From Catajapyx aquilonaris (lineage: Eukaryota), in NCBI GenBank assembly GCA_000934665.2, contig JYFJ02002484.1, positions 1 to 56,034 on the forward strand: a DNA stretch of 56,034 nucleotides, given 5' to 3'. The notes under the pieces were generated by a model. That model saw only the letters and a list, made by a program, of their open reading frames with translations, made no database searches and was not told where the DNA came from. This document shows positions 6,001-52,691 of this stretch, in pieces. How positions within the stretch are numbered: the first letter of the stretch is position 1; each line of letters begins with the position of its first letter. Made by a program: the position numbers and the translations under genes.

Positions 6001-9000
6001 AAATGAATAATTAAAATTGGTATAAAATTAACAATATTCGCCCCAAATATACAAAATATCCAATAGTTGCTCTAGTTATGAATTTATTCTTTGCCCATTC
6101 CAGTTGAAATGTGACCATCCGCAGAGTGACAGCGCAGAGTGTTGAATATTCATTGAAACAATTCAGCGTCGTATAGTAGGCATAAGTACCATAAAGTTGC
6201 CCGAGCAATAAATTTTATCCGGGAGCAACTTCTTCTTGTCGGATTAACCAGTTCATATCTCCAAAAATATATGACAACTATGAGCGGTATTCAGGTGGGG
6301 TGTGGCCGGTACGTGCCAAGCTAACGATAGCTAATTAACGTCAAAATGTGGAATGGAGAATCCCGCAGCCTTCCGCGGGGAGACACTCCGTGTTGTTAAT
6401 TCAAATAACTGCTGCACATCGATTTTTTAAAAAGTGCAGTCAGGGTTATACTCTGGTTTCCACGCACACCATTTCCATAATCGGCTTTAGATCCCCACCT
6501 CTCTGATGTGGCACGGGCCAGCCGGAATTTAACACATACACACAAAAAATCTGGTCGTGTTTGACACTTCTACAGTATAGTTGCAGTTACACTGCTGTGT
6601 AAAAATTTATATTTGGGTGGGGGAGGTGTTACAGTAAATATGATAGCTCGGAACTATTGTGGGCATAACCCAGTTTTTGTACAGCATAACGCTTGAAGCC
6701 AGGTCGCTGACTTGGCTGTCATTAATGTGGAGGAATGATCATAACTTACTGAGGAGGTAACCAGCAGGACGACCCTATTTGTATGGCTTATCGCAATAAA
6801 CGTGGCAGTAATGTCAGATCAATAGGACCCTAGAGTAACCAACTAGTGTGTAATGGACCACTTTTCCTCATTTTGAGGAAGAGGCGTTTAGGGTCTATGA
6901 CATGCCCTGAGGGTAGTGTCAGATATGATGGGACTTAGTTTGCTGATAGGCACAGCACATCGATTCTCTCCTGCTATGTACACTATAAGAGCAGAATATG
7001 GTTGACGTAACTAAAACTATCTGAGTAACCAAAACTACCGGTATTTGGGTAAAAAAAATCTAAATAAATAATTTATTGTCCAATGCCTGTAGTATTCATT
7101 CCAAGTATCCAGATGACATTTTACAATTTTTCGCCGTCATTGTCAAGCACTGTCGCGCTCTAACACAGCCGTCAAGCAACAACCTCTCTTTGACGCTCAA
7201 ATCAATGGCGTCAATAACTACAACGCTGCTATTGTATTTGCACACTGACATGACATGATGATATCGTTCCGGCCACATCGTTCCGCATAACAAGCAAGCT
7301 TTAATTGACAAACACCGAGCAAGTATTCTTGCCAACTGCTTTCGACTCACCCTGTACCTATACCAGTTTACAATAACATATACCATATCGAGACACTTTT
7401 TTTGTATCACGCCAGGAAGGTGCAGCAGAGCGTGAAGTTTCCAGCACTATTTGATGGGGAAAATTCGCACATGTCCGCGCTGGCAATGAGAACTGCCTCC
7501 CAAAAAAAGGATGGGTGAATACCAGGTGTGAAAAATTTGTCGCCCGATTTCACATCCACCTACAGTTTACCTGGTTACAGAGAGAAGCAGGGGGGAAAAA
7601 TACTTTGGGGCGGATATCATGCGGGAGGCATCGCCCACACGACGACAGAGTTCGCTACTTGAATACCCAAATCCCCTAGAAAATTGCTTGTCCCCACTTG
7701 AATACATTACGGAGAGGTTTTAGCACCCAATAAAACGCTGAGATGTTATGACGCCATTGTGATCCGAGGATCCGGCTCCTGGAATCGGAGGCGCTTTTAT
7801 GACTTATTTCTGGCACCTTTTTTTTTCTCTCGCACGACCCAGATGAATTACGAGTAAGAATTTCCATATAATCCCTTATTAGGTCGTAAAAAATTAATAC
7901 CCACCTGCGACCTGTCTCACTTCGCATCAAAAATTCAAATCGTAACATTTTCGGAGCCTATGACGCTGCCTATCACTTATTGGGAGCTAAAACTAATCTG
8001 TAGTTATATTCTGAGCCACATTAAATCCGTTAAAGGGCGAGATGAATTTCGTGAGATGAAAATGTGAGCTTCAATTTTGTGCAAGAATAAATCAACCGCA
8101 ATTAAGGCGGTTCAGTACACAAAATTTAGCATCAAAAACATATGGAATTTTACAAACTAGTTCCAACACATCGAGGAAAATGTCTTTCTACTAATAGGCT
8201 TATTCTCTCCGTCGGATGTTTGTCCGACCTGATACTACCACTTTCTCTCGCACGACCTGAGCGTGGCGGGAGTGTGCAGATGGAGGGTGCGCATTCTATG
8301 CCTGAAGACTAGTACTACGTGGTACATTGGACGGCCATCACCTTAAAATGTTTAGTTGCCACTGTCGTACTGATTATAAAGGTTTTGCCAAAATAATAAT
8401 AATAATAAGCTTATCGGCAGGAAAACTCCATCGCAGGCCATCCATGTTCACGTGTATTTCCATGGCACAACTTTTGTAATTGAGGAGAGCTGGGGTAAAA
8501 TTTTCACCAATGTGGTTTTTAATCTAAAAGTTCAGTCATGTAGTTGCCCCTAATCATCTAATTAAAAGTATACCTGCTGGGCAGAAAGCAACCGCGTCAA
8601 TTCAGTAAAAAAACTTTACAACACTCTCATTTTCTCGTTTCTATCAGTTGACATATAGAGGTGGCGGGGAAGCCGCAAACCACACGCAAGTTAATGCAAC
8701 ATGTTGTTTTAAATAATAAAATTTCAAACTCGAAATGCAACATACACTATTTTGTGTGCCTAGAAGGTGGAGGTTAACCGATGCCCATATTCGCGGAGAG
8801 TTTCGCATTAATATGCAATGGCTACAAAGATGCAGTGATGCAACATGTTATTGGCACATTCAACCAACGTTGCCAGCCCGGAGCTAATGTCAGTACGTAG
8901 GAAGTAAAAATCATGCAGTGTTTGGTTATCCAAGCTATGAGTGCCAGAATTAAATGGCCCGTATCGGTGTGTCACGGTTGTAAAAATTCCTGACTGTAGG

Positions 9001-10307
9001 CCCTCGTCCATCATCCTCATAGTCCCTCGCCTGCTATTTTCATTGCTATAAGCAAACAACTGGATGTGAAACATTTGTCAAATGACAACATTGAAGAGGA
9101 TGCAACGTCCCGACTCAACTCTCCCAAGTTGAGTCCGATTTTGCAGTAAAATAACACCGAAACGTATAGCTCCATAGGCATGGAACTGGTGATATTATCA
9201 CTGAAGATATTTTTTATCTCTCCGAATATTATGAAAATAGTCGCTAATTAGGAATTTCTTTGCTTTAAAAGCCTGAGCTGAACAATTAAGCTTACATCTC
9301 CATCCAGGGTTAACATTTTAGCTACATTTTTTCATATTTAGTTTTTTTTGCAACTGGTTCACTCAACTCCAGGAGTTATTTACAAAAGAAATCATCTGGT
9401 TATATGTCCCATGGTTATTATGTCCCAACATGTCTTTTTTTCCAGCCTCATTTCGATGCCGCACGTAGAGTATATTCACGACCGAGGAATATCCCTTTTT
9501 GTACCGTAGTATCGCCTCCCTCTGATGGCAACCCTGGACGCAAGCGTGCTGCTGGTCGACTATCTCATCGCGACAATGGGTCAGGAGGGGAAGTCATAAT
9601 TGTAGAGCAGCCAGGCGCCATAGCAGTTGGTCCTGGCCCTTCCCTAATAGCCTACCCGTGTAGTTACTTTGTGAGTGACGCCAATCCTTGATGAGGTCAC
9701 ATCCCCGACGGCGCTGGGGAGAGAGAGACCGACGATGATAACAATGACGAGGTAGTGGAGGGGCTAGACAGGTGTGGGGGGGCTTATCCTGCCAAGCTCC
9801 GTCACTGACGTCACAGAGGAAATAATGATCCGGCACCACGTTTTAGAAACGAGCCTTTATCATCCTGCCTCCCAATGTGTTATCAGGAGCCCGAGAGAGA
9901 GAGAGGCATCTAGCCTGGGACTATGGCTACACTGATCCGTCACTGGCTCGGATTTTGCGGGGACTCGGTTTTTATTAAAGAGTGTTCGCTGGAGCTGGAT
10001 CCACGTCTCCGTCTACTCACGTCCCGCACTCCAAATAACTACCATCAGAGTAGGAGGGATTTCATTTGTGAAGCCATATAAACTGCCAGCCGCCCCCTGC
10101 TATCTGTTCCGATACGCACACGGTTACACCCACGGCAACGGGCAAGTCCAGCCGCAGCCTAATCCACTTTACTCTGCACATAATTATATGACATAATTAG
10201 TCCAGCCCATGTGTGAGAGCCTAGGGGTTGGGGATGCTGAAGAACTCCCAGGATTACGCATGCGCAAAGTGCAAGGGTTGCCAGACGCACACTGAATTAA
10301 AACTTAC
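1..10307 (-). other. Probable GRIP intron (>10.3 kb) running off the window
   Basis: Donor GTAAGT at 10307-10302. No PDZ2-like coding sequence was found on the minus strand in 1-10307 by eye; a short divergent exon could have been missed. Confidence 0.6.
3979..3999. repeat. (GA)10 microsatellite
   Basis: Direct reading. Shorter GA/CT tracts also lie near 12040, 15032 and 20211. Confidence 0.9.
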
Positions 10308-10517
10308 GAGACGAGGGCATCTGGTACTCTACTTCGAGCATGACCCGGTCCTGTGCGCCCCTGAGCAGGTTGACGATCTCGTCGTGTCTGAGTCCCGTGG
10401 TCCTGATCCCGTTGACGGCCACCAGGTAGTCGCCCACGGCCAGGGCGTCGCTTCTGGAGGCGATGCTCCCTGGGCGGAGGTTGAGGATCTGGGGTCGGCA
10501 TCCCTTGTCCGTGCCTC
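10308..10517 (-). CDS. GRIP1: Internal coding exon (210 nt, phase 1-1) of a GRIP-family multi-PDZ scaffold; C-terminal part of PDZ1
   Basis: Minus strand reads ttttggtgtttcag|GA GGC ACG ... TCG TCT C|gtaagt. Translation GGTDKGCRPQILNLRPGSIASRSDALAVGDYLVAVNGIRTTGLRHDEIVNLLRGAQDRVMLEVEYQMPSS closely resembles vertebrate GRIP1 PDZ1 as recalled ([68 protein letters not shown]). Strong GC3 bias against flanks. The symbol denotes the family; an invertebrate Grip would be co-orthologous to GRIP1/2. Confidence 0.95.
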
Positions 10518-10541
10518 CTGAAACACCAAAAGGGATGCCGA
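10495..10541 (-). other. Inverted repeat / predicted pre-mRNA hairpin across the 3' splice site
   Basis: tcggcatccctt (10495-10506, exonic) is the exact reverse complement of aagggatgccga (10530-10541, intronic). Confidence 0.85.
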
Positions 10542-13500
10542 TGTCAACTCTGGTCCACTGCCAATAGTCACGAGGGGGCTTGACTGGGGGGTAAATATCT
10601 GGGGCTTTTGATTTCGAGTACTCTTAGCTGAAGGAGGGACCAGTAGAAACCAGAGAGTAAAACCAACAGAGTCACCATGCAACAACGAAGGACGATCCGG
10701 TTGCACACACACTTTGCGGGATATAAGTGGAGATAAAATATCACAGTTCGAGCTGTCACACCTTGAATTGCAAGTGTGTCAAAAAAAACGTCGGTTTTCC
10801 TTAGTTTGTGTTCATAGAATCGTAAGTGCTAAAATCCCACAAGTGGAAATGTCAAAGGCTCTAAGCGCCAAAGGGAGAGATTTGAGTTTATTTCAAATGA
10901 GAAGTTTACCTTCAGTATCACGAATGAATTTTAGGCACTTTGAACCTCCTGCACGGGCACATAACTTAGAACATTTTGTATGCAGAATCTCAATTTCTAA
11001 TTATCTGACCTGTGGCATTTCCACTCTTCAATTATTAAATGAGTAGGTCATTATCAAAACCAGGTTATCTTCATCGGTAAAAATCCTTCATAAAATAGGA
11101 ATTTCATATTTAGTGAGTCTTTTCACGGCCCAGGGTACCTTTCCCAATGGAAGGTGAACCAGAGGTGAAAATGTTACTATAATTACAAGTATATTGAAAA
11201 TAAGAATAATTTAGAGCTCAGTTGAGACGCCTGCTGTAACGGCTGGAAATTTCACACCAATGAGGTTTGATAATTGGCCTACTTTTTCTTGTTATGATAA
11301 CTGTCATCTTTTCGAAATAAATCCTGTTTACTTCCGGACGTTTTCCCACCACCTCATTGGTATACCCCCCAATCAGTTGATGCACCCGCGAACTCACAGG
11401 AGAAAGCAATCAATATTCTATAATTCAATATGGGACGAACAACACTGTAACACAGGATGCCCATTTTTCTTTCCCATTCTCGAAAAATAACAAACAAAAA
11501 CCATCAGCGAGTTTAGAAAGAAAATATTGACTTCCGGATTGGGAGGGTTGGAAGCCAGCGATTCCCAATGGAAAAATGGGGTCGCAAGTGGTGTGCGGTG
11601 TGGTTTGGATAGATCGACGAGGTTCGGATTGAACGAAAGAACGTTTCAACTTGTGCTAGGTTTAAGCCCGAAAAAAATTTGAAGTAGAAAAAAAAAATCT
11701 GCTTTTCAAACCCCTCCCTTACACTTCCTCCTCCTGCTCATTTTTTCCATTCTTGGAGCCTTGCTCACCTCCGCAGACTCCTTGTTTGCCTGTCAACTTC
11801 TCTTTGGCAGCAGGAGGAGAAAGTTTTTCTTTAGGGGGGAGAAAAGTGAGGAAAGAGAGAAGTAGTAAGAGGAAGGGGGAAAAAAAGGTAAGGGAGGTGA
11901 ATAGCAAAAGGACCCTCGGCCCGAAATCAGGCGAGGTAATTGCCTTTCCTTCGCCTGCACTCGGTTTCATCTCGCTCTCTTCAAGTCCTCTCGCACGCAG
12001 ACTGCGAATTTTGCAGTAGCCGGCCATATTTTTTTTTCGTTCTCTCTCTCTCTCTAATTCTACCTACCCCCTTCCAACTTCGGAAATGGAACTGCAATTT
12101 ATTCCTTCTGGCCACTCCGCGCCACTTCATGGAACATAATGGACACTGGAAAGTCCATCTGCGCTCAACAACGCTGCCGATAAAAGAACTACTTGCGGAC
12201 AATATTGGGCGCTTCTGAATTTACGGCCGCAACGTGCCGGACGAAAATTATTAAAAAATCGACGATTCTCAAAGCCCCCTCAATCAACCGGTTGAATGCT
12301 GCGAGTGATGTGAATCTGTCCAAAACTGCTCCGATATTAGGATACCACCCCGCTCATATATACATTCGACCAAAAACTAAATTTCCACCACTTTTTCAAA
12401 GGCTGCTCTTTACTAAAGGCGCCACCAGTTTGTTAAAAAATTTGTTGCAATTATTCCTCATATGTTTTAGTCTAAAGTGTGAACCAGCTTAAGTTTCACC
12501 CATTATATATCTTGGCTCTAAACCAGAGTGAGAGAGAAGAACCTTCCCGCCTTTTGAAACAATAATTCAAAGCAAGTTATAAACTCCCATGTTCTTGGGA
12601 TTAGTTTGGTGGGTGGGGTTTTGAGTGTGCCGCAGTATGGCGTGTACGTATTGGGATTGGGGACCCTAAATCACAGCCATGATTCATTACTCTGTATCTC
12701 TCAGGCAGTTTCCCCCCCTCTCATCGTCTGTGACATTGAGATATGTCTCGGAGCAAGACAGAGAAACCCATAGGGTAACTTCCTCTCGGCAGGTAATCTG
12801 GTTCCTTTCGCTCTGGTGATGAACACGAGCGCTTCCCCTGACAAGCTTTGCAAAGAGACCCTATATATACAATGTGCCGCTCTAACTTTATGGATTAGGC
12901 AAATACTTGATGGGCTCGAGAGCATACGCAGCACTACAAGATTGTGTGCGCCTGCATGGAGTCGATTATTAGCAAAATTACTGCACTGACGGTGAAAGTG
13001 TAATTGCCACTTCATTATTTTGAACGCGCTCAACACTCTGTGTTGCTTCAGGGGGGGAAAGTAAATAAACCAGTGTAATCTAGTTGCTATGAGTAGGTTA
13101 TTGCATACAGACCGTTGATTCATATAACCATTGTTGTTACTGCTACGTTAAAATAACAATAGTAGTAAGGTGATGGAATTTCAGCAGTCTTTCGAAGCCA
13201 CAGAAATTTTCTCACCACTCGTGCGTGAGAGCAAAGACAGTATCATTTGCAAAATATTAACTCTAGTTAAATCCAAATTGCCCTGGAGCATCACAAAAAA
13301 AATATTCCTCGACCTTTTCTTTACACTTTGCAATGCACAACGTCAAAGGGGATAATACTGTTTGGAATTTCCTCGCGAGTTTTAAATGCTAACGATGAAG
13401 TTCATGAAAGCTAATCTTTGAAGAGAATTCCTTCACCTTTTGATGGGAGTAGCTGGCGGAAGTCGAGGATTAGGGAGAGACTCTAGGTTGGATGAGGATG

Positions 13501-16500
13501 AGCTATAATACAAGGTGAAAGTAGCCGTGCTTTGGCAGTTATGAAGCCAAGGTTGAAAAGGAAGCTGCGGCAGGAAGGCTTCAAAACCGAAATCCCTTCA
13601 TTCATCAACTTTTGTGGTCTCGTCTCCAAGTGTCACGTGATCCAATTTTCGCTTGCGTTGGATATATACTGAAGGAAAAAGTTGCGGCTCATTTTATGAC
13701 ATGGGGCCCAAGGTGGAAGGAATTAGTTTTGGGGAGAGAAAATCCAGCAAACCAGGCGACGCCTGCTGCCAACGTCTCAACTTCTCTTTAGTCCGCCTTC
13801 TCTTTATATTCGTCGACTATTCGTCGTCTAATGAAGAGTTTTTTTTGCGAATTCCACGGATTACATCGAAAAAAACACAAACAAAAAATAAATTGCGAAT
13901 TCAGGGGAATGGAAAGTTTGCAAACTGGCAGGGAGGGGCCTTTGTGCTAGCTTTGAAAAGAGCATCGTGGGGAATGCCATATTCCAAGCGCAATGTTGAT
14001 TTCGACTAATCTTGCAATTTGTTCCAGAACTTACCATTTACACAGTGCACGAAAATCACCTGCCACTCTAAATCTCTACAGATCAAAGCGAAATTCTGAC
14101 AAACTTCTGAGTTAAAAACGTGGGGGGCTTTAGAAGCATGAATATTTTCGCCATTTCAGCAGTCACTAAACCGCTGTAACTGAAATCAGTTTTCTGCAGT
14201 ACTTTAGGCCATAATACGACGTATGAAATGTAACTATTTTTTTTATTTCCTTTGCAGTATTTCTATACAGTTCTTAACCAGTTTTTCCGACTCCATCCTG
14301 ATATGAAGTAGTGTAAAACAAATTGATGGACTTTGCTTGGACTCAAATAAAATCAGACTCGCCAATTTTTTCCCCTAAAATTAGTCAAACTGGACATATA
14401 AAAAAGTTTAAGTTGACATTTTCACTAATAAAAGTTCAAAGTTTGCAAACTTGTAATAGCTTAATGCCTGTCCTGACAGTATAACTCTCTGAAATGGAGC
14501 ACAACACTTCGATATTAATAAATCCGGTTGCTCGGCCTCTTCAGAATATTTTAAAAACATATTGCGGCAGAACTTGAAATAGCATTTTGGATAGCTGGCC
14601 AGGCATGTAATCCTGCATAAATCCCCCCAGATGCAGGCTTGGCACGGTCAGTTGTTTTCAGTCAGTCCCAGTTTTCCAGACCCCAGGATCGATCTTGCTT
14701 ACAACCCAACCAAAAGAAAAAATTTCAGAAAAAAATATTATGATGTCACTCAATATTTCTGGCACGAAACCAACCAAACATGACAACGCAGGTTGTTTCA
14801 TTACCCCCACAGCAGGTCGTGTCGAGACCTCCACAAAATGACCTGTGGGGGGTCATAAGTAAGGCTTGTTGGACACCATCCGCCCCCAACAACCCAATCT
14901 GTTCGAAATGACCCTGTCCGCGAAAATATTATTAACGCTTTTCGGGTTTTCTCTTGAGGGGGATTCCCTTATCCACGCGTCCAGATGAAGCCTTGCCAGG
15001 ACATCTATTTTGAGATAAGGCAACGCAGATACTCTCTCTCTCTCTCTCATAAGCTTTTCCTCTCTCCCCCCAGTGCAATTCCCATCAATTGTTGGCCTTC
15101 CCCACGTTTTATTTTTTTCCCACTCTCTGAAGTGCGCTAACCATTCTAAATGTGCAGGAGTTGTGACGTTTAGTGGTGGATTTCGTCATCGGTTTTTGGC
15201 CAAGCATCAGTGGCTGGCCGCAGTGCTCTGCGACACTTTGGCCATCCGGGGGTTGGCAAGAGGCCTTTGGGACAAGTGCTGGGGGTGACGTCGGTCGTAA
15301 ACACTAGGGAGGAGGGGTGGTAGAGAGAAGTGTTGCCAAACGAGCTGCCACCGCATTGGCTTGGCCAGGACATAGGCGCAAATGAGCCTTTGATAGGTTA
15401 TCAGTGTCGTGCTCTGGCTTTATCCTCAAGGACCACCTTTCCTTCTCCGCAGGTCCAGAGTATCCCCAACTAATTTTGCAATTGATTAACACTGGAGTTC
15501 AAGTTGAGGGGGGAGAGGAAAGAGAACAGGGGGGGAGGGGGGTGTTCTGTGCAGCTCGAAACAAGAAAGTTGCTAATCTCGTTTGCCGGAACCATCCCAA
15601 AGTATAAACTCAATTTGAGCTAACCGCTGCTGCGGTCACGACTTCTCTTTGGTCATAGTGGGGAACAGGAGCTATAAGTATGGTCAGCGAGACATGCTCG
15701 GATAGGTTGCTGGTCAGACATTACTTTTTCAAAAAAAAAAACTTGTTACATGCACTAGACCGTAGGTTATGTATATTGTACAACACCAGCCCCGCCTTGT
15801 TGTTGTTTTAGCGCAATTACATCCTTTGTTTAGAACCGACTGCGGCTAGGTCGTAATTACAGCATGGTTACAGTAACTGGGTCTCATTATAGGTCATGAT
15901 GGGCAAGACGAAAAAATTTCGTGGGTCATCTCCTTTGTGGCTCAAATAAGGATTACGAAATGTGGAACCCAATTTTATCTGCTTTCTAGCAGCGGAGCCC
16001 GTTCTTCGCACAGTCATGGTGAAGTACGAGTAATCCAGGATTGTCGTAGACCAGAAAAATCCTAAATAAAAGTACGGTTTTCGGACTTTTCCGTCAATCC
16101 GCGGCACGTAAACCATAACTCTCTTAGTAGTCCGAGAGTGGGTTAGGTACCCCGGACATACAGACAAACTTTCTTATATGAGATACAACGCAAAATAATC
16201 ACTTTTAAACCCAACTTCATTCTTGTAAAAAAATATCGACATATTTCGTAAATGTTGGTAAAGAAACGGCATATTGTTCAGCTACTGTATAAACCCGCCC
16301 TAACCAACACGGATGGATGTGACGTCCGCTCATAGTGTGCGGCCGGTGTCATACAGTGCTCGGGCCTCATATTGCACCACAACATATCCGTTTTTGGCCA
16401 GAGGAACTGAACTCGCACTTTTTTTATATACCTAACTTTCTAGCCTCCGACCAATATTGCGGGAGTGATAATTTCCCCAACTCATGTCCGCACAACCTGC

Positions 16501-19035: not shown

Positions 19036-21023
19036 AATGCTACCCGAACCCCAAAGCGATAAATTCTCCTGGAAACCTCCCGGAGAAAGTTGTCGAAAAA
19101 AAAATCCAGAGGAAAAGATGGAAGAGTGCTAAACCGTATAGTGTTGGCCATTTACTTTTGCAAATGATCCTACTGTTTCGATGCATCCGAGTGTAAAGAG
19201 CAGGATCCGCGTCGATCAGAGCCTGTTTTTCCATTAGTCCTTCCTGGAAATTACACTGTGCATTGGATGGCAAAGTGAAAGAGCCAACAAGAGGGGTGGG
19301 GGGTGGGGGCTTTAGAGGCACCAACAACACCCCCTCCCGGACCAAACCCCGCCATGTTGACGTCGCTGCCAACGAGGACAAACTGGGGATAGTAGTCGAA
19401 ACTTTTTGCATGGATATAGCTACAGAGAAGGGCTCTCTCAGTACTCATCCTTGTATCGAATCAATAGGATGTATGGAGCCACCCCCTGTTTTTTTTTTTT
19501 TTGTGGGAGGATGGGAGGCAGAAATTCAAAGAGTGGCTTTCGAATGCAAATCTGAATTGTCGCTGCGTTTCATTCACATGGAAGGGAATTGGCCAAAAAA
19601 AGTGCATACGTTTGTAATCACTGTGCATTGAGCAAGTCCTCTATCATACGTACAGTTGTAATTTTGGACATATAAAAAAAAATCAGGCTGAAATCCCCGA
19701 GTCGACAGTTCAATATGGGGCATCAGGTGAAATGCTGACTCCTGCAACCGGATTACAAGAGAAGCAACAATGCAACTTTTTTTGTAGAAATGATTTGCTG
19801 CAGAGGTAAGTTTGCAATCAACTTGTACACAAAAATATGGGAGTGCAGTTGACACACTAGTTACACCTTTCTTTCAGTATGTCGTGGCAAAAAAATATAT
19901 TTTGCCTGCTTGGTAATGGCGGTAAAAATGAGACCCCGTGCAATATTCGCAATGTGCAAAATGTCGAAAATGGCAGTCAGCAGTGAGCAATAACCTAAGT
20001 GCTTGGCCCTTCCAGTTTTTGAGGATTACGCGGCAACTGGCTGCATAAATTAAAACGCAATATTAAAGACAGTGCTCTAAAAAAATTCTCGCAAAAGCAA
20101 GTGACGGGACCGGGACTGCTTAATTAATTGATGAAAAGGACCCCCTCATAATGGTGAATTAATGTCCTGGTGGCAAGGGAAGGCTTGATTACTTTCTGCA
20201 GAGAAAGTGCAGAGAGAGAGACAGAGAGAGAGAGAAAACTACCACCCTCTGTACTTAAAACACGTGTGTATTTGTCTGGCGCACTGTTTCCACGTGAAGC
20301 AAACTTTCCCTTGCGGCTCCATAAAGAGCGTTTCCCAGTCCGTATGGTTTAATTGCCAGCAGTGTTATTTGGGAGACTGGAGCTGCGGCAATAAGGAACA
20401 AACAATCGCACTAAAAGCAAGCAAGCCTCCCCCACCAAATTGAATTCCGCCGAGGTGGTCTAGGGAGGGTGTTTGAAAGTGGGTGGGTTGGGTGAAGTCT
20501 GGCTATAAGACCTCCAATAGGAGAATAGGACCTGTCACTCTCGATATTAACCGAAGATTAATCAGACAGGTCTGTGAACTTATATTGCGCGAGAAACCCC
20601 CTGCGATTCAATATATTGCCATGTAAAATTCGGAGTGGCAATGCTGCGTGTAATTACAGGTTCTTGAATAGTGCATAATTTGCCATATTTATTAACTAAT
20701 TGTTGCCAACATTGAGTGACATCCGGTAATGATTCCGGCTCTTACTGTAAGTCAAGAAGCGTTGGAAAAAAAAGGTGTGAAGCAGGTGCAAAATTGTATG
20801 GGAAAAACTGCCTCAAGGAAAATAAGTGAGCCATCATGTTACTTGATGGGCGTTTCAGAGATAGTTGATGGGCATCACCCAAAAAAAATAATAAGTTGCC
20901 GAAAAATTAAAGCAGTTGATTGCACACAAGCATCGTTAGTTTCCCTGCGATAGAGCCAATATTACTTGGCGGAAAAATATGGTAGTTTAATTTTGAAACA
21001 ACTAAAAATTATCACATTCAATA

Positions 21024-21123
21024 ATTTTGGTAACAGACGGCAAGGTAAATATTTTGACTAAACAATGACATTTAAATGTTATTGTTTAGTCAAAATATTT
21101 ACCTTGCCGTCTGTTACCAAAAT
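21024..21123. repeat. 100-bp near-perfect palindrome (50-bp arms, no spacer, one mismatch)
   Basis: Checked base by base around the centre ttt|aaa (21073/21074): 49 of 50 pairs match; the mismatch is g21067/t21080. Confidence 0.97.
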
Positions 21124-24100
21124 AGTAAAATGAGACGACGCGACGAGAGTACACCTGAGCTGGTTTTAATATGGCGAGTAATGTATACGTCTCAGCAAGT
21201 AATTATTTTCCGTGCTGGTGATCATAACCTGCAACATAACATTGTATTACAGTCGCGCTTCATGCTTGCTTATTCAGGAGCCCCACAGCAACTGATGAGC
21301 ATGCTGGGAATAAGATCATCCCATTTTGGACTTACTAGGTCTTCATTTCCCATGCTTCAATTTTAGTTAGCTAGTCAAACTCCGGTAAAAGGCGAGTACC
21401 GTATTAAATTACCATCATCAATTTAACAGTGTAAACTACACCTTCTGCCCATATCAGACAATGGACTCAGTGTCTGCAATATTATTTTCACAGATAGCAG
21501 GAATCCCTGTAAGTTTACAGTCATATAGATTTCATTTACGCTGCAAAATGTTAAATATGAATATTGTTCCATTTCAATGCATTGGAAAGAAATAATATTT
21601 GCATCGCATGTGCAACATTATTGTGTACGTGGCATCTGGCTGAATAAATATGTGCCATAGCCTTCTGTAACTGACTGCCCCTTTTATGTTTGATAACGAC
21701 TTTTATGTCAATAAAATATGCCGATGTAAAATTCCACCATATAAAAACCTTCATTATTTATTCACCTGCACTGTTGACTATACTTACACACAATGTACTG
21801 CATAATGACACAGTAAGGGTCTGATAATAACCATGTTCTCCTTCGGGCGAGACCAGGCAACAGCATCAATAATTATTACTATGCGGTAAGCTTACTTTAT
21901 ATTTCCGTGCCTTATCTTTAGCCGTGTTACACTGAATTATACACAGCCGCCTAGAATATCTGCGAGTGATAGTCGGTCCGCAGCACAATTAATTTATTCA
22001 TCTGGTGATAGTTCATACTCACGTCGGAGCTGTGATGGTGAAAGAGCTCTTGGATAAACAGATGGGCGACTCAACCCGGATTTTCAACCCTTAATCGGAT
22101 TACTATGAAATGTTTAATAGACACCCAGTTCTGCTTTTCCACGGGAGCGATTTAGTGACATATATTACAGTTCCCTCTGCTGTCGAGCGGTGAAAAGAGA
22201 AAACCAACCAACCGAAGCACAAACGACCGTATAATGTTCTATTCACTGAAATGGGCGGGCAATGTGCTACAAAATTAACTTAAATCCGTGCGGCATCTGA
22301 ATGTTGCATTAGATGCTCTCAGGTACAGTGTACTGATGCATACCATGCAGGGGGATCACCACAGGCAAAGTGAAATTATTTAACCAACGGTTTATTATTC
22401 CAGTGTCTTTCCAACAGTTGATACAATGAGTATGCTTAGCACATTTAACTTCAGGCGTTTTGTAGCATGACAGCAACAATGGATGCTGCACAGGGTGTTC
22501 AAAAAGTTGAGATTTGCAGCTTATTCTCAGAATGATCGTACTTTGACTGGTATATATGCACATAAGATTAGAACGAGTCAGAAATCCGAACTGTCAAGGC
22601 ACCAGCACCTCTTTCCTAGCTCTAGTAAACTTTTGAGAGCCCGTCCTTGATCTCACAACCCGCTGACGAGTGGGTAAACTGGCATCTTTCATCATCTCCC
22701 CAGAGTTTGGAGACGGCCAATGATAGGGGCGCAGCATATGCAAAGAAAGGAAGGTATATAGAGAGCCCCACCACCTCTCTCGTTGTTTTTTTTCCTCTCT
22801 GTCTATATCTTCAGCTCTTTCTCCTCCGAGTTCAGGCGTCCGCACCCTCATAATGCGTGTAGCGCAGAGTTCATCGCCTGCCAAGTGTCTCCCAAAATGG
22901 CTCTTAAGGCAGAATACGGCCTGCTTCCGGATCCCTCACTTGATTCATTTTAGGAGCCTGCCTCGCAAATGAGGCAGCTTGGATCTGCGCATGATTTGTA
23001 CCTCACTTTTACGTGTTTCTCTCATTTTTCTGTAAAGAAAAAGTGCGTAAATATGCTCATTATTTTAAGTAACGAGAGGCTCTGAATAATTGGAAGCATG
23101 CAGAGCTGACAAGTTATAGCAAATAGTAGAAAAATGACATCCGTCAGCAAAGTAAAAACTATGAAAAAAATAGTCACACTGCCAAAGTGCTTCAGGATTT
23201 TTTTTAAACATGTAAAATGATACACTGCGTCGCATGATAAGACCTTGTTGCCTGTTTGTCTTCAGTACGTTGCCTGAAGCCCTTTCAGCATTAACGATGA
23301 ATTGTGTGCAAGTCTGTGCATCTCGGGCAGGTGTAATTTTTGCATGTAATTGTGCTGGGGCCAAAGAGAAGCCCATGTGCGTAGTGTGTATATAGGACTG
23401 ACCCTAGTTGTTCCTGCTCTTCCAGCATTGATATTTATGTGAGTAATTCCAGGGGTGGTGACACCAGACCGTCCCTTAAGAGTCAAACAGACCTTCCCCG
23501 GCTTGGCATGTGAGTTATAAACTGGGTTCCGGAGCAGGAAATGTGAATGAGCTTTCAGGTTAAAAGTGAAGAGATGAGGATGAAGGAGGCCAGAGATGAA
23601 GCGAGGCCATTTCCGGACCAAATTGTATAAATTAAGCCTGGGATATAGTACGGTGTAGTCCCTTCAGTACCTCTGCCCCTACAAGCACTAGTTTGAATAA
23701 TACCAATTCACATGAGGCTCAATGGGAGAAAAAAAAGGAACACTGCCCACTAACTTCATTATATCAAGGATAATGAAAGTGCCAACTTGTAAATGTATGG
23801 TATCAGCCATATAAAATTCAAATTATACAAATTGCTGCCAGGAATTTGGAAAATCTCTGATTAAATAATATGCGTCACTATTTGCAAACGTGCAAAATAT
23901 TCTGGCCAACGTTGCACTTCATTTTGATGGTCCATATCTTTGGGTCTCAAATTCACATCCGTTGGAACAGGTGCCTCTCACTTCAGCAGACTGCAGCTTT
24001 TTACAGCTTTTCTCTCTCAAACCCCCCCTGAAAGTACTCTTCTTCACAATGGCACGTCCGCACTAGTTTTTCCCCCAGCTTTTACGCCAGCCTGCAGATA

Positions 24101-27073: not shown

Positions 27074-27113
27074 GACGTTAATTATAAATTCCGCCGCCAT
27101 TATAATTAACGTC
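27074..27113. repeat. 14-bp perfect inverted repeat with 12-nt spacer
   Basis: gacgttaattataa (27074-27087) - attccgccgcca - ttataattaacgtc (27100-27113). Confidence 0.9.
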
Positions 27114-52620: not shown

Positions 52621-52691
52621 ATAGGTAAGGGAAGGTAAGGTTAGGGTAAAGTTAGGTTAGGTTAGGTTAGGTTAGGATAGGTTAGGTTAGG
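52621..52691 (+). repeat. Interstitial (TTAGG)n telomere-like repeat
   Basis: Seven TTAGG plus one ATAGG at 52652-52691, preceded by degenerate units ATAGG, TAAGG, GAAGG, TAAGG, TTAGG. TTAGG is the ancestral arthropod telomere motif. Confidence 0.9.

What the first reader, a model, noticed from the sequence alone, without database searches (positions are those of the whole stretch)
10495..10541. Hairpin placing the PDZ1-exon 3' splice site at its apex: candidate splicing switch or ADAR recoding duplex
Seen: the pre-mRNA reads UCGGCAUCCCUU-UUG-GUGUUU-CAG|G-AGGCAC-GGAC-AAGGGAUGCCGA. A perfect 12-bp intron-exon stem and an inner 6-bp stem (two G-U pairs, valid only on the transcribed strand) put AG|G in the terminal loop and bury the pyrimidine tract. 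The exon is 210 nt, phase 1-1, so skipping keeps the frame and deletes most of PDZ1. Established: structures masking 3' splice sites modulate splicing, and intronic editing-complementary sequences guide ADAR recoding in neural genes. Inference: structure-controlled inclusion of PDZ1, and/or A-to-I editing of the paired Lys codon AAG (10506-10504, K to R or E) in the betaB-betaC loop.
Basis: partly seen in the sequence, partly recalled or inferred. Interest (0 to 1): 0.75.

Follow-up and report, generated by a model that had tools for sequence, protein, structure and literature searches.

The report
Hairpin over a GRIP splice acceptor
A very stable RNA hairpin really does span the splice acceptor of the first PDZ exon of an invertebrate GRIP scaffold gene, but distant relatives lack it and no RNA data exist, so it is more likely a tolerated mutational by-product than a proven splicing or editing switch.

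Summary
The hairpin is real. It has a 12-bp perfect intron-exon stem plus 2+6 inner pairs, CAG|G as tetraloop and -28.5 kcal/mol. It sits on the acceptor of the 210-nt, phase 1-1 PDZ1 exon of a single-copy GRIP gene. It is an outlier: 0 of 100 inferred acceptors of this genome exceed 8 bp. The chance rate is 5-9 x 10^-5 per acceptor, so a handful are expected per genome, and short perfect inverted repeats are about 15-fold over shuffle here. Function is unshown. Nine orthologous acceptors (6 distinct, distant animals) have stems of only 4-6 bp; no close relative or RNA run was available. Best reading (0.55): a lineage-restricted by-product (chance or template switch), tolerated because the AG and branch point lie outside the helix; the exon is mostly included. 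Rivals: RELL2-like structure/ADAR-controlled skipping (0.30) and Lys recoding (0.12; conservative change, edge-of-helix geometry). The scan has noted similar unproven splice-site hairpins in other genes of this genome.

The parts
10530..10541 (-). Intronic (5') arm of the 12-bp perfect stem, positions -24 to -13 of the acceptor; includes the 5' part of the pyrimidine tract
10521..10529 (-). Inner intronic strand: 2 pairs, G.G mismatch, 6-bp stem with two G-U pairs (3' part of the pyrimidine tract)
10517..10520 (-). Tetraloop CAG|G carrying the 3' splice site; predicted unpaired (p about 1.0)
10507..10516 (-). Inner exonic strand, mismatch and bulged C
10495..10506 (-). Exonic (3') arm: four whole codons, Lys-Gly-Cys-Arg; A10506 and A10505 are the proposed editing sites
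10543..10547 (-). Branch-point-like TTGAC, A at 10544 (-27), three bases outside the stem (motif match only)
10308..10517 (-). GRIP PDZ1 exon, 210 nt, phase 1-1, GC3 59 of 69 codons
36549..36620 (-). Upstream GRIP exon (72 nt; first strand and carboxylate-binding loop of PDZ1), followed by a 26,031-nt intron
10628..10670 (-). Pyrimidine-rich candidate alternative acceptor (exon would start at 10627; +110 nt shifts the frame to a stop at 10331-10329); 6.9 bits, 20th percentile; use not shown

Best explanation
A real, single-copy, lineage-restricted local hairpin across the PDZ1 acceptor of GRIP that arose as a mutational by-product and is tolerated rather than used as a switch. Shown: the complementarity, its predicted stability, the gene structure, and its absence from distant orthologues. 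Inferred origin: a pyrimidine tract facing a purine- and GC-rich exon start gave a weak hairpin, and chance substitutions or one short template switch made the free intronic arm a perfect reverse complement of four codons. Inferred behaviour: the hairpin probably folds in the nascent RNA and briefly competes with U2AF for the tract. The tract is transcribed before its partner, CAG|G is displayed in the loop, the branch point lies outside the stem, and both splice sites are of normal strength. So the exon is included in the great majority of transcripts, with at most a small kinetic penalty or low-level incidental editing.
For: The per-acceptor chance rate is 5-9 x 10^-5; with an assumed, unmeasured 10^5 acceptors, 5-9 such sites are expected per genome. 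Perfect inverted repeats of at least 12 bp with loops up to 30 nt number 12 in 390,784 bases versus a mean of 0.8 in 10 shuffles; 6 of the 12 have 12-14-bp arms, this one included. The stem is absent from 9 of 9 orthologous acceptors (6 distinct; stems 4-6 bp). The outer stem is all Watson-Crick, as a DNA-level event would leave it. Template switching creates perfect stems in one step (PMC8794818 abstract; PMC5453318 passages). The context is GC-rich: intron end 0.52, above all 100 controls; exon start 0.67. AG unpaired, branch-point motif outside the stem, acceptor score at the 43rd percentile. The arm residues all occur in homologues, so the protein shows no distortion.
Against: The site is the most structured of 101 acceptors examined: 47-nt MFE -28.5 versus a mean of -6.2 and best -15.2; tract unpaired probability 0.09 versus a mean of 0.47 and lowest 0.19. 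Only 1 of 5,000 composition-keeping shuffles folded as well. Splicing signals are usually kept single-stranded by selection (PMC2077896 abstract), so persistence may imply use. The orthologues tested are distant (seven at 60% protein identity; two matched only partly), so their lack of the stem does not exclude a younger functional element. The inverted-repeat excess is partly repeat-derived (6 of 12 have 19-43-bp arms; two share an arm sequence) and was not seen at any of the 100 control acceptors. The genome encodes an ADAR with dsRNA-binding domains.
Confidence: 0.55

Rival explanations
1. A functional, lineage-specific splicing element of the RELL2 exon 3 type. The exonic purine-rich arm pairs with the pyrimidine tract; ADAR or another dsRNA binder stabilises the duplex and excludes U2AF. 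The result is in-frame skipping (GRIP lacking most of PDZ1), slower splicing, or a shift to the upstream acceptor at 10627, which frameshifts to a premature stop and would lower GRIP by nonsense-mediated decay.
For: Same anatomy as RELL2 exon 3, where ADAR2 binds a GA-rich exon / Py-tract duplex and blocks U2AF65 (PMC7005744 passages). Extreme stability and tract burial relative to 100 controls. Symmetric phase 1-1 exon. An alternative acceptor is present 110 nt upstream. ADAR is encoded in the genome.
Against: Not conserved in 9 distant orthologous acceptors. 0 of 148 homologous proteins with both flanking anchors lack the exon (weak, because the searches were seeded with this exon). The AG itself is not sequestered. 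The arm has no GAAGGAGA motif as in RELL2. Skipping would leave an orphan first strand of PDZ1.
Confidence: 0.3
2. An ADAR recoding duplex: the upstream intron acts as editing-complementary sequence, and A10505 or A10506 of the Lys codon is deaminated before the 26-kb intron is removed, giving Arg or Glu in the loop after strand B of PDZ1.
For: About 20 bp of duplex, comparable to the 15-bp ECS proposed for fly synapsin (PMC1660579 passages). A10505 lies in an AAG context (neighbour preference recalled, not tested). ADAR is present, and GRIP is a synaptic scaffold.
Against: The Lys adenosines lie at the inner edge of the perfect helix, with a bulge and a mismatch within 5 bp on their 5' side; the ADAR2 deaminase domain is suggested to need more than five base pairs there (PMC4333395 passages). 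Both pair with U, with no A.C mismatch. K to R or E is seen genomically in 7 of 52 homologous motifs, so the effect would be small. Grip has 0 rows in a fly exonic editing table where cac and Syt1 are found (PMC5319793 S9 Table). The duplex is not conserved in distant orthologues.
Confidence: 0.12
3. Assembly artefact, or a fragment of a transposon or MITE inserted at the acceptor.
For: MITE-like inverted repeats occur in this window (21012-21135), and a high-copy repeat lies about 350 nt away (10897-11175).
Against: Contigs of three runs reproduce 9436-11066 with no differences, and depth over 10238-10771 is single-copy at 80% likeness. One arm is conserved coding sequence. A DNA search of the genome finds this place only.
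Confidence: 0.03

Closest known systems
Human RELL2 exon 3: ADAR2-bound duplex between exonic GA-rich sequence and upstream polypyrimidine tract (Tang et al. 2020, PMC7005744; passages read)
   Same: Local intron-exon duplex that buries the pyrimidine tract using a purine-rich exonic arm near the 3' splice site.
   Different: RELL2 has shown ADAR2 binding, U2AF65 exclusion, an editing footprint, and frameshifting skipping with NMD. Here none is shown, skipping would be in frame, the arm lacks GAAGGAGA, and the AG is in a tetraloop.
cTNT intron 4 stem-loop, MBNL1 versus U2AF65 (as summarised in review PMC7404189; passages)
   Same: A stem-loop at the intron 3' end competes with the single-stranded state that U2AF65 needs.
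   Different: No trans factor or alternative exon is known here; the partner strand is coding exon.
Intronic editing-site complementary sequences, e.g. Drosophila synapsin (PMC1660579; passages)
   Same: Short exon-intron duplex covering a recodable codon in a synaptic gene.
   Different: In synapsin the ECS is in the downstream intron and editing is shown. Here it would be the upstream intron's own tract, and neither editing nor conservation is shown.
Short template-switch mutations creating perfect inverted repeats (PMC5453318 passages; PMC8794818 abstract)
   Same: A perfect, all-Watson-Crick short stem with a short spacer, present in one lineage.
   Different: The diagnostic mutation cluster against a close outgroup could not be tested.
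GRIP1/GRIP2 family (7-PDZ scaffold; PDB 2qt5)
   Same: The exon encodes PDZ1 (E 1.1e-28 to 2qt5; 64-75% to chelicerate and mollusc GRIPs); intron position conserved; remaining PDZ exons on contig C427.
   Different: The review passages read (PMC6502786) list GRIP1a-e and N-terminal palmitoylation variants and do not describe a PDZ1-exon skip or editing.

Membership tests
GRIP gene, PDZ1 exon | PDZ1 homology and downstream tandem PDZ exons of a single gene | tested here: met
Splice-site-masking hairpin (RELL2/cTNT type) | Stable local duplex predicted to bury the pyrimidine tract | tested here: met
Splice-site-masking hairpin (RELL2/cTNT type) | The acceptor AG itself is base-paired | tested here: not met
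   CAG|G unpaired at p about 1.0; not required in every known case
Splice-site-masking hairpin (RELL2/cTNT type) | The exon is alternatively spliced | not testable with these tools
   No RNA holder listed; 0 of 148 homologous proteins lack the exon, but the set is biased
Splice-site-masking hairpin (RELL2/cTNT type) | Conservation or compensatory change of both arms | tested here: inconclusive
   Absent in 9 of 9 distant orthologous acceptors; no close relative held
Splice-site-masking hairpin (RELL2/cTNT type) | Stem-breaking and stem-restoring mutations change and rescue inclusion | not testable with these tools
   Needs a minigene
ADAR recoding site with intronic ECS | ADAR with dsRBDs encoded in the genome | tested here: met
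   C396: dsrm hits upstream of A_deamin, best match ADAR2
ADAR recoding site with intronic ECS | Duplex of about 15-20 bp or more with the target A well inside it | tested here: inconclusive
   20 bp in all, but a bulge and a mismatch lie within 5 bp 5' of the Lys adenosines
ADAR recoding site with intronic ECS | A-to-G difference between RNA and DNA | not testable with these tools
   No RNA run
Template-switch product | Perfect Watson-Crick arms with short spacer | tested here: met
Template-switch product | Clustered differences in one arm against a close outgroup | not testable with these tools
   No close relative held

The most novel reading that the evidence does not exclude
One 47-nt hairpin couples ADAR and splicing in an arthropod GRIP: ADAR binding holds the pyrimidine tract closed and diverts splicing to a PDZ1-less or NMD-bound form, while deamination of the Lys adenosines both recodes PDZ1 and weakens the stem, reopening the acceptor. 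This would be a self-releasing editing-splicing switch on a synaptic scaffold, not found described for any GRIP in searches.
Probability: 0.07. Interest if true: 0.65.

Novelty: new member of a known kind. Interest (0 to 1): 0.28.

Why it matters
If functional, it would be a compact invertebrate example of the RELL2-type coupling of RNA structure, ADAR and acceptor choice, and a first case of regulated PDZ1 inclusion or recoding in a GRIP (not found in searches). It is small enough for a clean minigene test. If incidental, it still shows that a near -29 kcal/mol stem over the pyrimidine tract of a deeply conserved exon can persist when the AG and branch point stay exposed. Both kinds of element are already known, so the gain is an example, not a new principle.

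Tried and rejected
No RNA holder was listed for 10200-10800. Run X5, of the same species label, covered only repeats in 6500-14500, so it gave neither expression nor polymorphism data. The sample's own contigs show no variant in the hairpin, which is uninformative because they may be the source of the window. No relatives are held for this genome; a single-protein metagenome scan found none; no look-alike windows exist in the scan and no neighbouring notes. Rfam: 0 matches in the window. A long-range duplex scan of exon tiles against the pre-mRNA gave only irregular GC-rich pairings and had no control, so it was not used. An extension of the stem over the branch point was unstable between contexts (pair probability 0.43 at most). 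Folding with A replaced by G does not model inosine and was discarded. Locus L024 (41% identity, a different PDZ protein) was dropped from the orthologue count, leaving 9 of 10. 21 of 121 inferred junctions were dropped by a score filter before the control counts. The in-frame reading of the intron end (10623-10518) has no ATG and only chance-level PDZ likeness; rejected as an alternative first exon. Supplements of PMC5365144 carry no gene names in the table searched (positive controls failed), and 57 of its 69 files were not searched. Of PMC5319793 only files 11-13 were searched; 10 files were unreadable and 6 not searched; they may bear on fly Grip editing. No structure or complex prediction was run, as it could not decide the question.

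Full report
Observation. It folds into 12 Watson-Crick pairs, two more pairs, a G.G mismatch, a bulged C and a 6-bp inner stem with two G-U pairs, closed by the tetraloop CAG|G. MFE is -28.5 kcal/mol, z -6.1, 0 of 200 shuffles. The helix keeps pair probabilities of 0.96-0.99 (outer) and 0.91 (inner) in contexts from 47 to 500 nt at 15-37 C, and the loop is open. Assembled contigs of three runs of one sample reproduce 9436-11066 with no differences and at single-copy depth; these may be the window's own source and are not independent.

Gene. The exon is a PDZ domain, closest to GRIP1 PDZ1 and 64-75% identical to chelicerate and mollusc GRIPs. The upstream exon is 36620-36549, the intron is 26,031 nt, and the PDZ1 exon is 10517-10308 (210 nt). 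The remaining PDZ exons lie on contig C427. Both junctions are phase 1 and the next exon begins ag|CT ACC, so skipping keeps the frame; a contig gap lies between, so an unseen exon cannot be excluded. The host is an arthropod-like animal: closest homologues are chelicerate, and TTAGG-type repeats lie at 52624-52687 (their telomeric meaning is recalled).

Is it more than chance? I inferred 121 junctions from myosin, kinase, kinesin, dynein and deaminase matches in this genome and kept 100 after a score filter; these are predictions, not transcripts. Their longest intron-exon stems are 3-8 bp. In 9,900 recombined pairs, 3 reach 11 bp and none 12. The 47-nt MFE of controls averages -6.2 (best -15.2), and tract accessibility averages 0.47 (lowest 0.19) against 0.09 here. 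Nine other acceptors of the same gene have 4-7-bp stems. Shuffling the intron end against the fixed exon gives 12 bp in 26 of 300,000 trials, and an equal MFE in 1 of 5,000. The genome-typical rate is 20 of 400,000. So this is a one-in-10,000 to one-in-20,000 acceptor. With an assumed 10^5 acceptors, 5-9 are expected per genome by chance alone, and a scan for striking features will pick them out. Perfect inverted repeats of 12 bp or more with short loops number 12 in 390,784 gene-centred bases, against 0.8 in shuffles. Six of these have 12-14-bp arms (this one included) and six have 19-43-bp arms and are probably repeat-derived. The context is GC-rich: intron end 0.52, above all 100 controls (partly the arm itself); GC3 59 of 69.

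Conservation. No relative genome is held. A profile scan of metagenomes gave 10 loci, of which 9 are GRIP PDZ1 orthologues with the intron at the same position and phase. L015-L021 (4 distinct sequences, 60% protein identity) have 5-bp stems and MFE -7 to -8. L022 and L023 have 4 and 6 bp, and an extra intron inside PDZ1. The hairpin is therefore not deeply conserved; these animals are too distant to exclude a younger functional element. The four arm residues each occur in homologues (K 44, G 21, C 6, R 24 of 52 distinct motifs, from 186 of 279 proteins held). All wobble positions fit the intronic arm, which 236 of 20,000 synonymous resamplings do; this follows equally from selection or from the intron having been copied from the exon.

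Splicing reading. The closest precedent is RELL2 exon 3, where ADAR2 binds a duplex between exonic GA-rich sequence and the upstream pyrimidine tract and excludes U2AF65 (PMC7005744, passages). The cTNT stem-loop is similar (review PMC7404189, passages). Pairing at 3' splice sites is associated with more skipping (PMC11802449, abstract), and splicing motifs tend to be single-stranded (PMC2077896, abstract). Here the tract is buried but the AG is not. A branch-point-like TTGAC has its A at -27, three bases outside the stem, and the acceptor scores at the 43rd percentile. The best alternative acceptor (exon start 10627, 20th percentile) adds 110 nt and shifts the frame to a stop at 10331-10329; an in-frame one at 10583 is weak (3rd percentile). 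None of 148 homologous proteins with both flanking anchors lacks the exon, but my searches were seeded with it, so this is weak.

Editing reading. The genome encodes an ADAR2-like gene with dsRNA-binding motifs. The duplex is as long as the 15-bp ECS proposed for fly synapsin (PMC1660579, passages). Against: the Lys adenosines sit at the inner edge of the perfect helix, paired to U, with a bulge and a mismatch within 5 bp on their 5' side, where ADAR2's catalytic domain is suggested to need more than five pairs (PMC4333395, passages). R and E are genomically encoded there in 5 and 2 of 52 motifs. Grip has no row in a fly exonic editing table in which cac and Syt1 appear (PMC5319793, S9 Table search). 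PMC9479739 passages added nothing decisive.

Most likely account. An incidental, lineage-restricted hairpin, made by chance complementarity or a short template switch. Such events create perfect stems in one step (PMC8794818, abstract; PMC5453318, passages). It is tolerated because the AG and branch point stay exposed and the tract is made before its partner. Origin and in vivo behaviour are inferred, not shown. I give this 0.55, structure-controlled splicing 0.30, recoding 0.12 and artefact 0.03. The exceptional stability is the main reason not to go lower on function.

Novelty. Searches returned no paper, judged from listings and abstract starts, on PDZ1 skipping or editing in GRIP; the review passages read (PMC6502786) list other isoforms. 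The library lacks most subscription papers. The kind of element is known, and the scan's unchecked notes list similar unproven splice-site hairpins in MARK, mastermind and FoxP genes of this genome. Verdict: a real, unusually strong candidate of a known kind, function unproven; interest 0.28.

Noticed in passing
window 21012-21135: MITE-like inverted repeat (62-nt arms, 90% complementary, 43 bp perfect) inside the 26-kb GRIP intron.
   Followed up: no
window 8183-8374 and about 10897-11175: High-copy interspersed repeats (summed depth up to hundreds of times single copy) in the introns flanking the PDZ1 exon; some contigs join the two regions on opposite strands (8183 to 11039), so they may be related inverted copies bracketing the exon.
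   Followed up: no
window 10628-10670 (-): Long pyrimidine-rich stretch ending in CAG, 110 nt upstream of the true acceptor; its use would frameshift to a premature stop.
   Followed up: partly
window 10308-10517 (-): The PDZ1 exon has very high GC3 (59 of 69 codons) and is open over most of its length in all three minus-strand frames.
   Followed up: partly
window 27074-27113: 14-bp perfect AT-rich inverted repeat with a 12-nt loop.
   Followed up: no
window 52624-52687: Short interstitial TTAGG-type tandem repeat.
   Followed up: no
window 6500-14500: The sample's contigs run for 1.6-17 kb with almost no alternative alleles, suggesting very low heterozygosity.
   Followed up: no
L022:40-714 and L023:129-702: GRIP orthologues with an additional intron splitting the PDZ1 exon, so the 210-nt exon is not universal.
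   Followed up: partly
L140 (G000:C396) and L141 (G000:C855): Two similar adenosine-deaminase loci with near-identical junction sequences, probably paralogues; C396 has dsRNA-binding motifs upstream. C3633 and C3271 carry further A_deamin genes.
   Followed up: partly
L091:3282-3326 and L142:923-967: The same short inverted-repeat arm occurs in two unrelated gene loci, pointing to a small hairpin repeat family in this genome.
   Followed up: no
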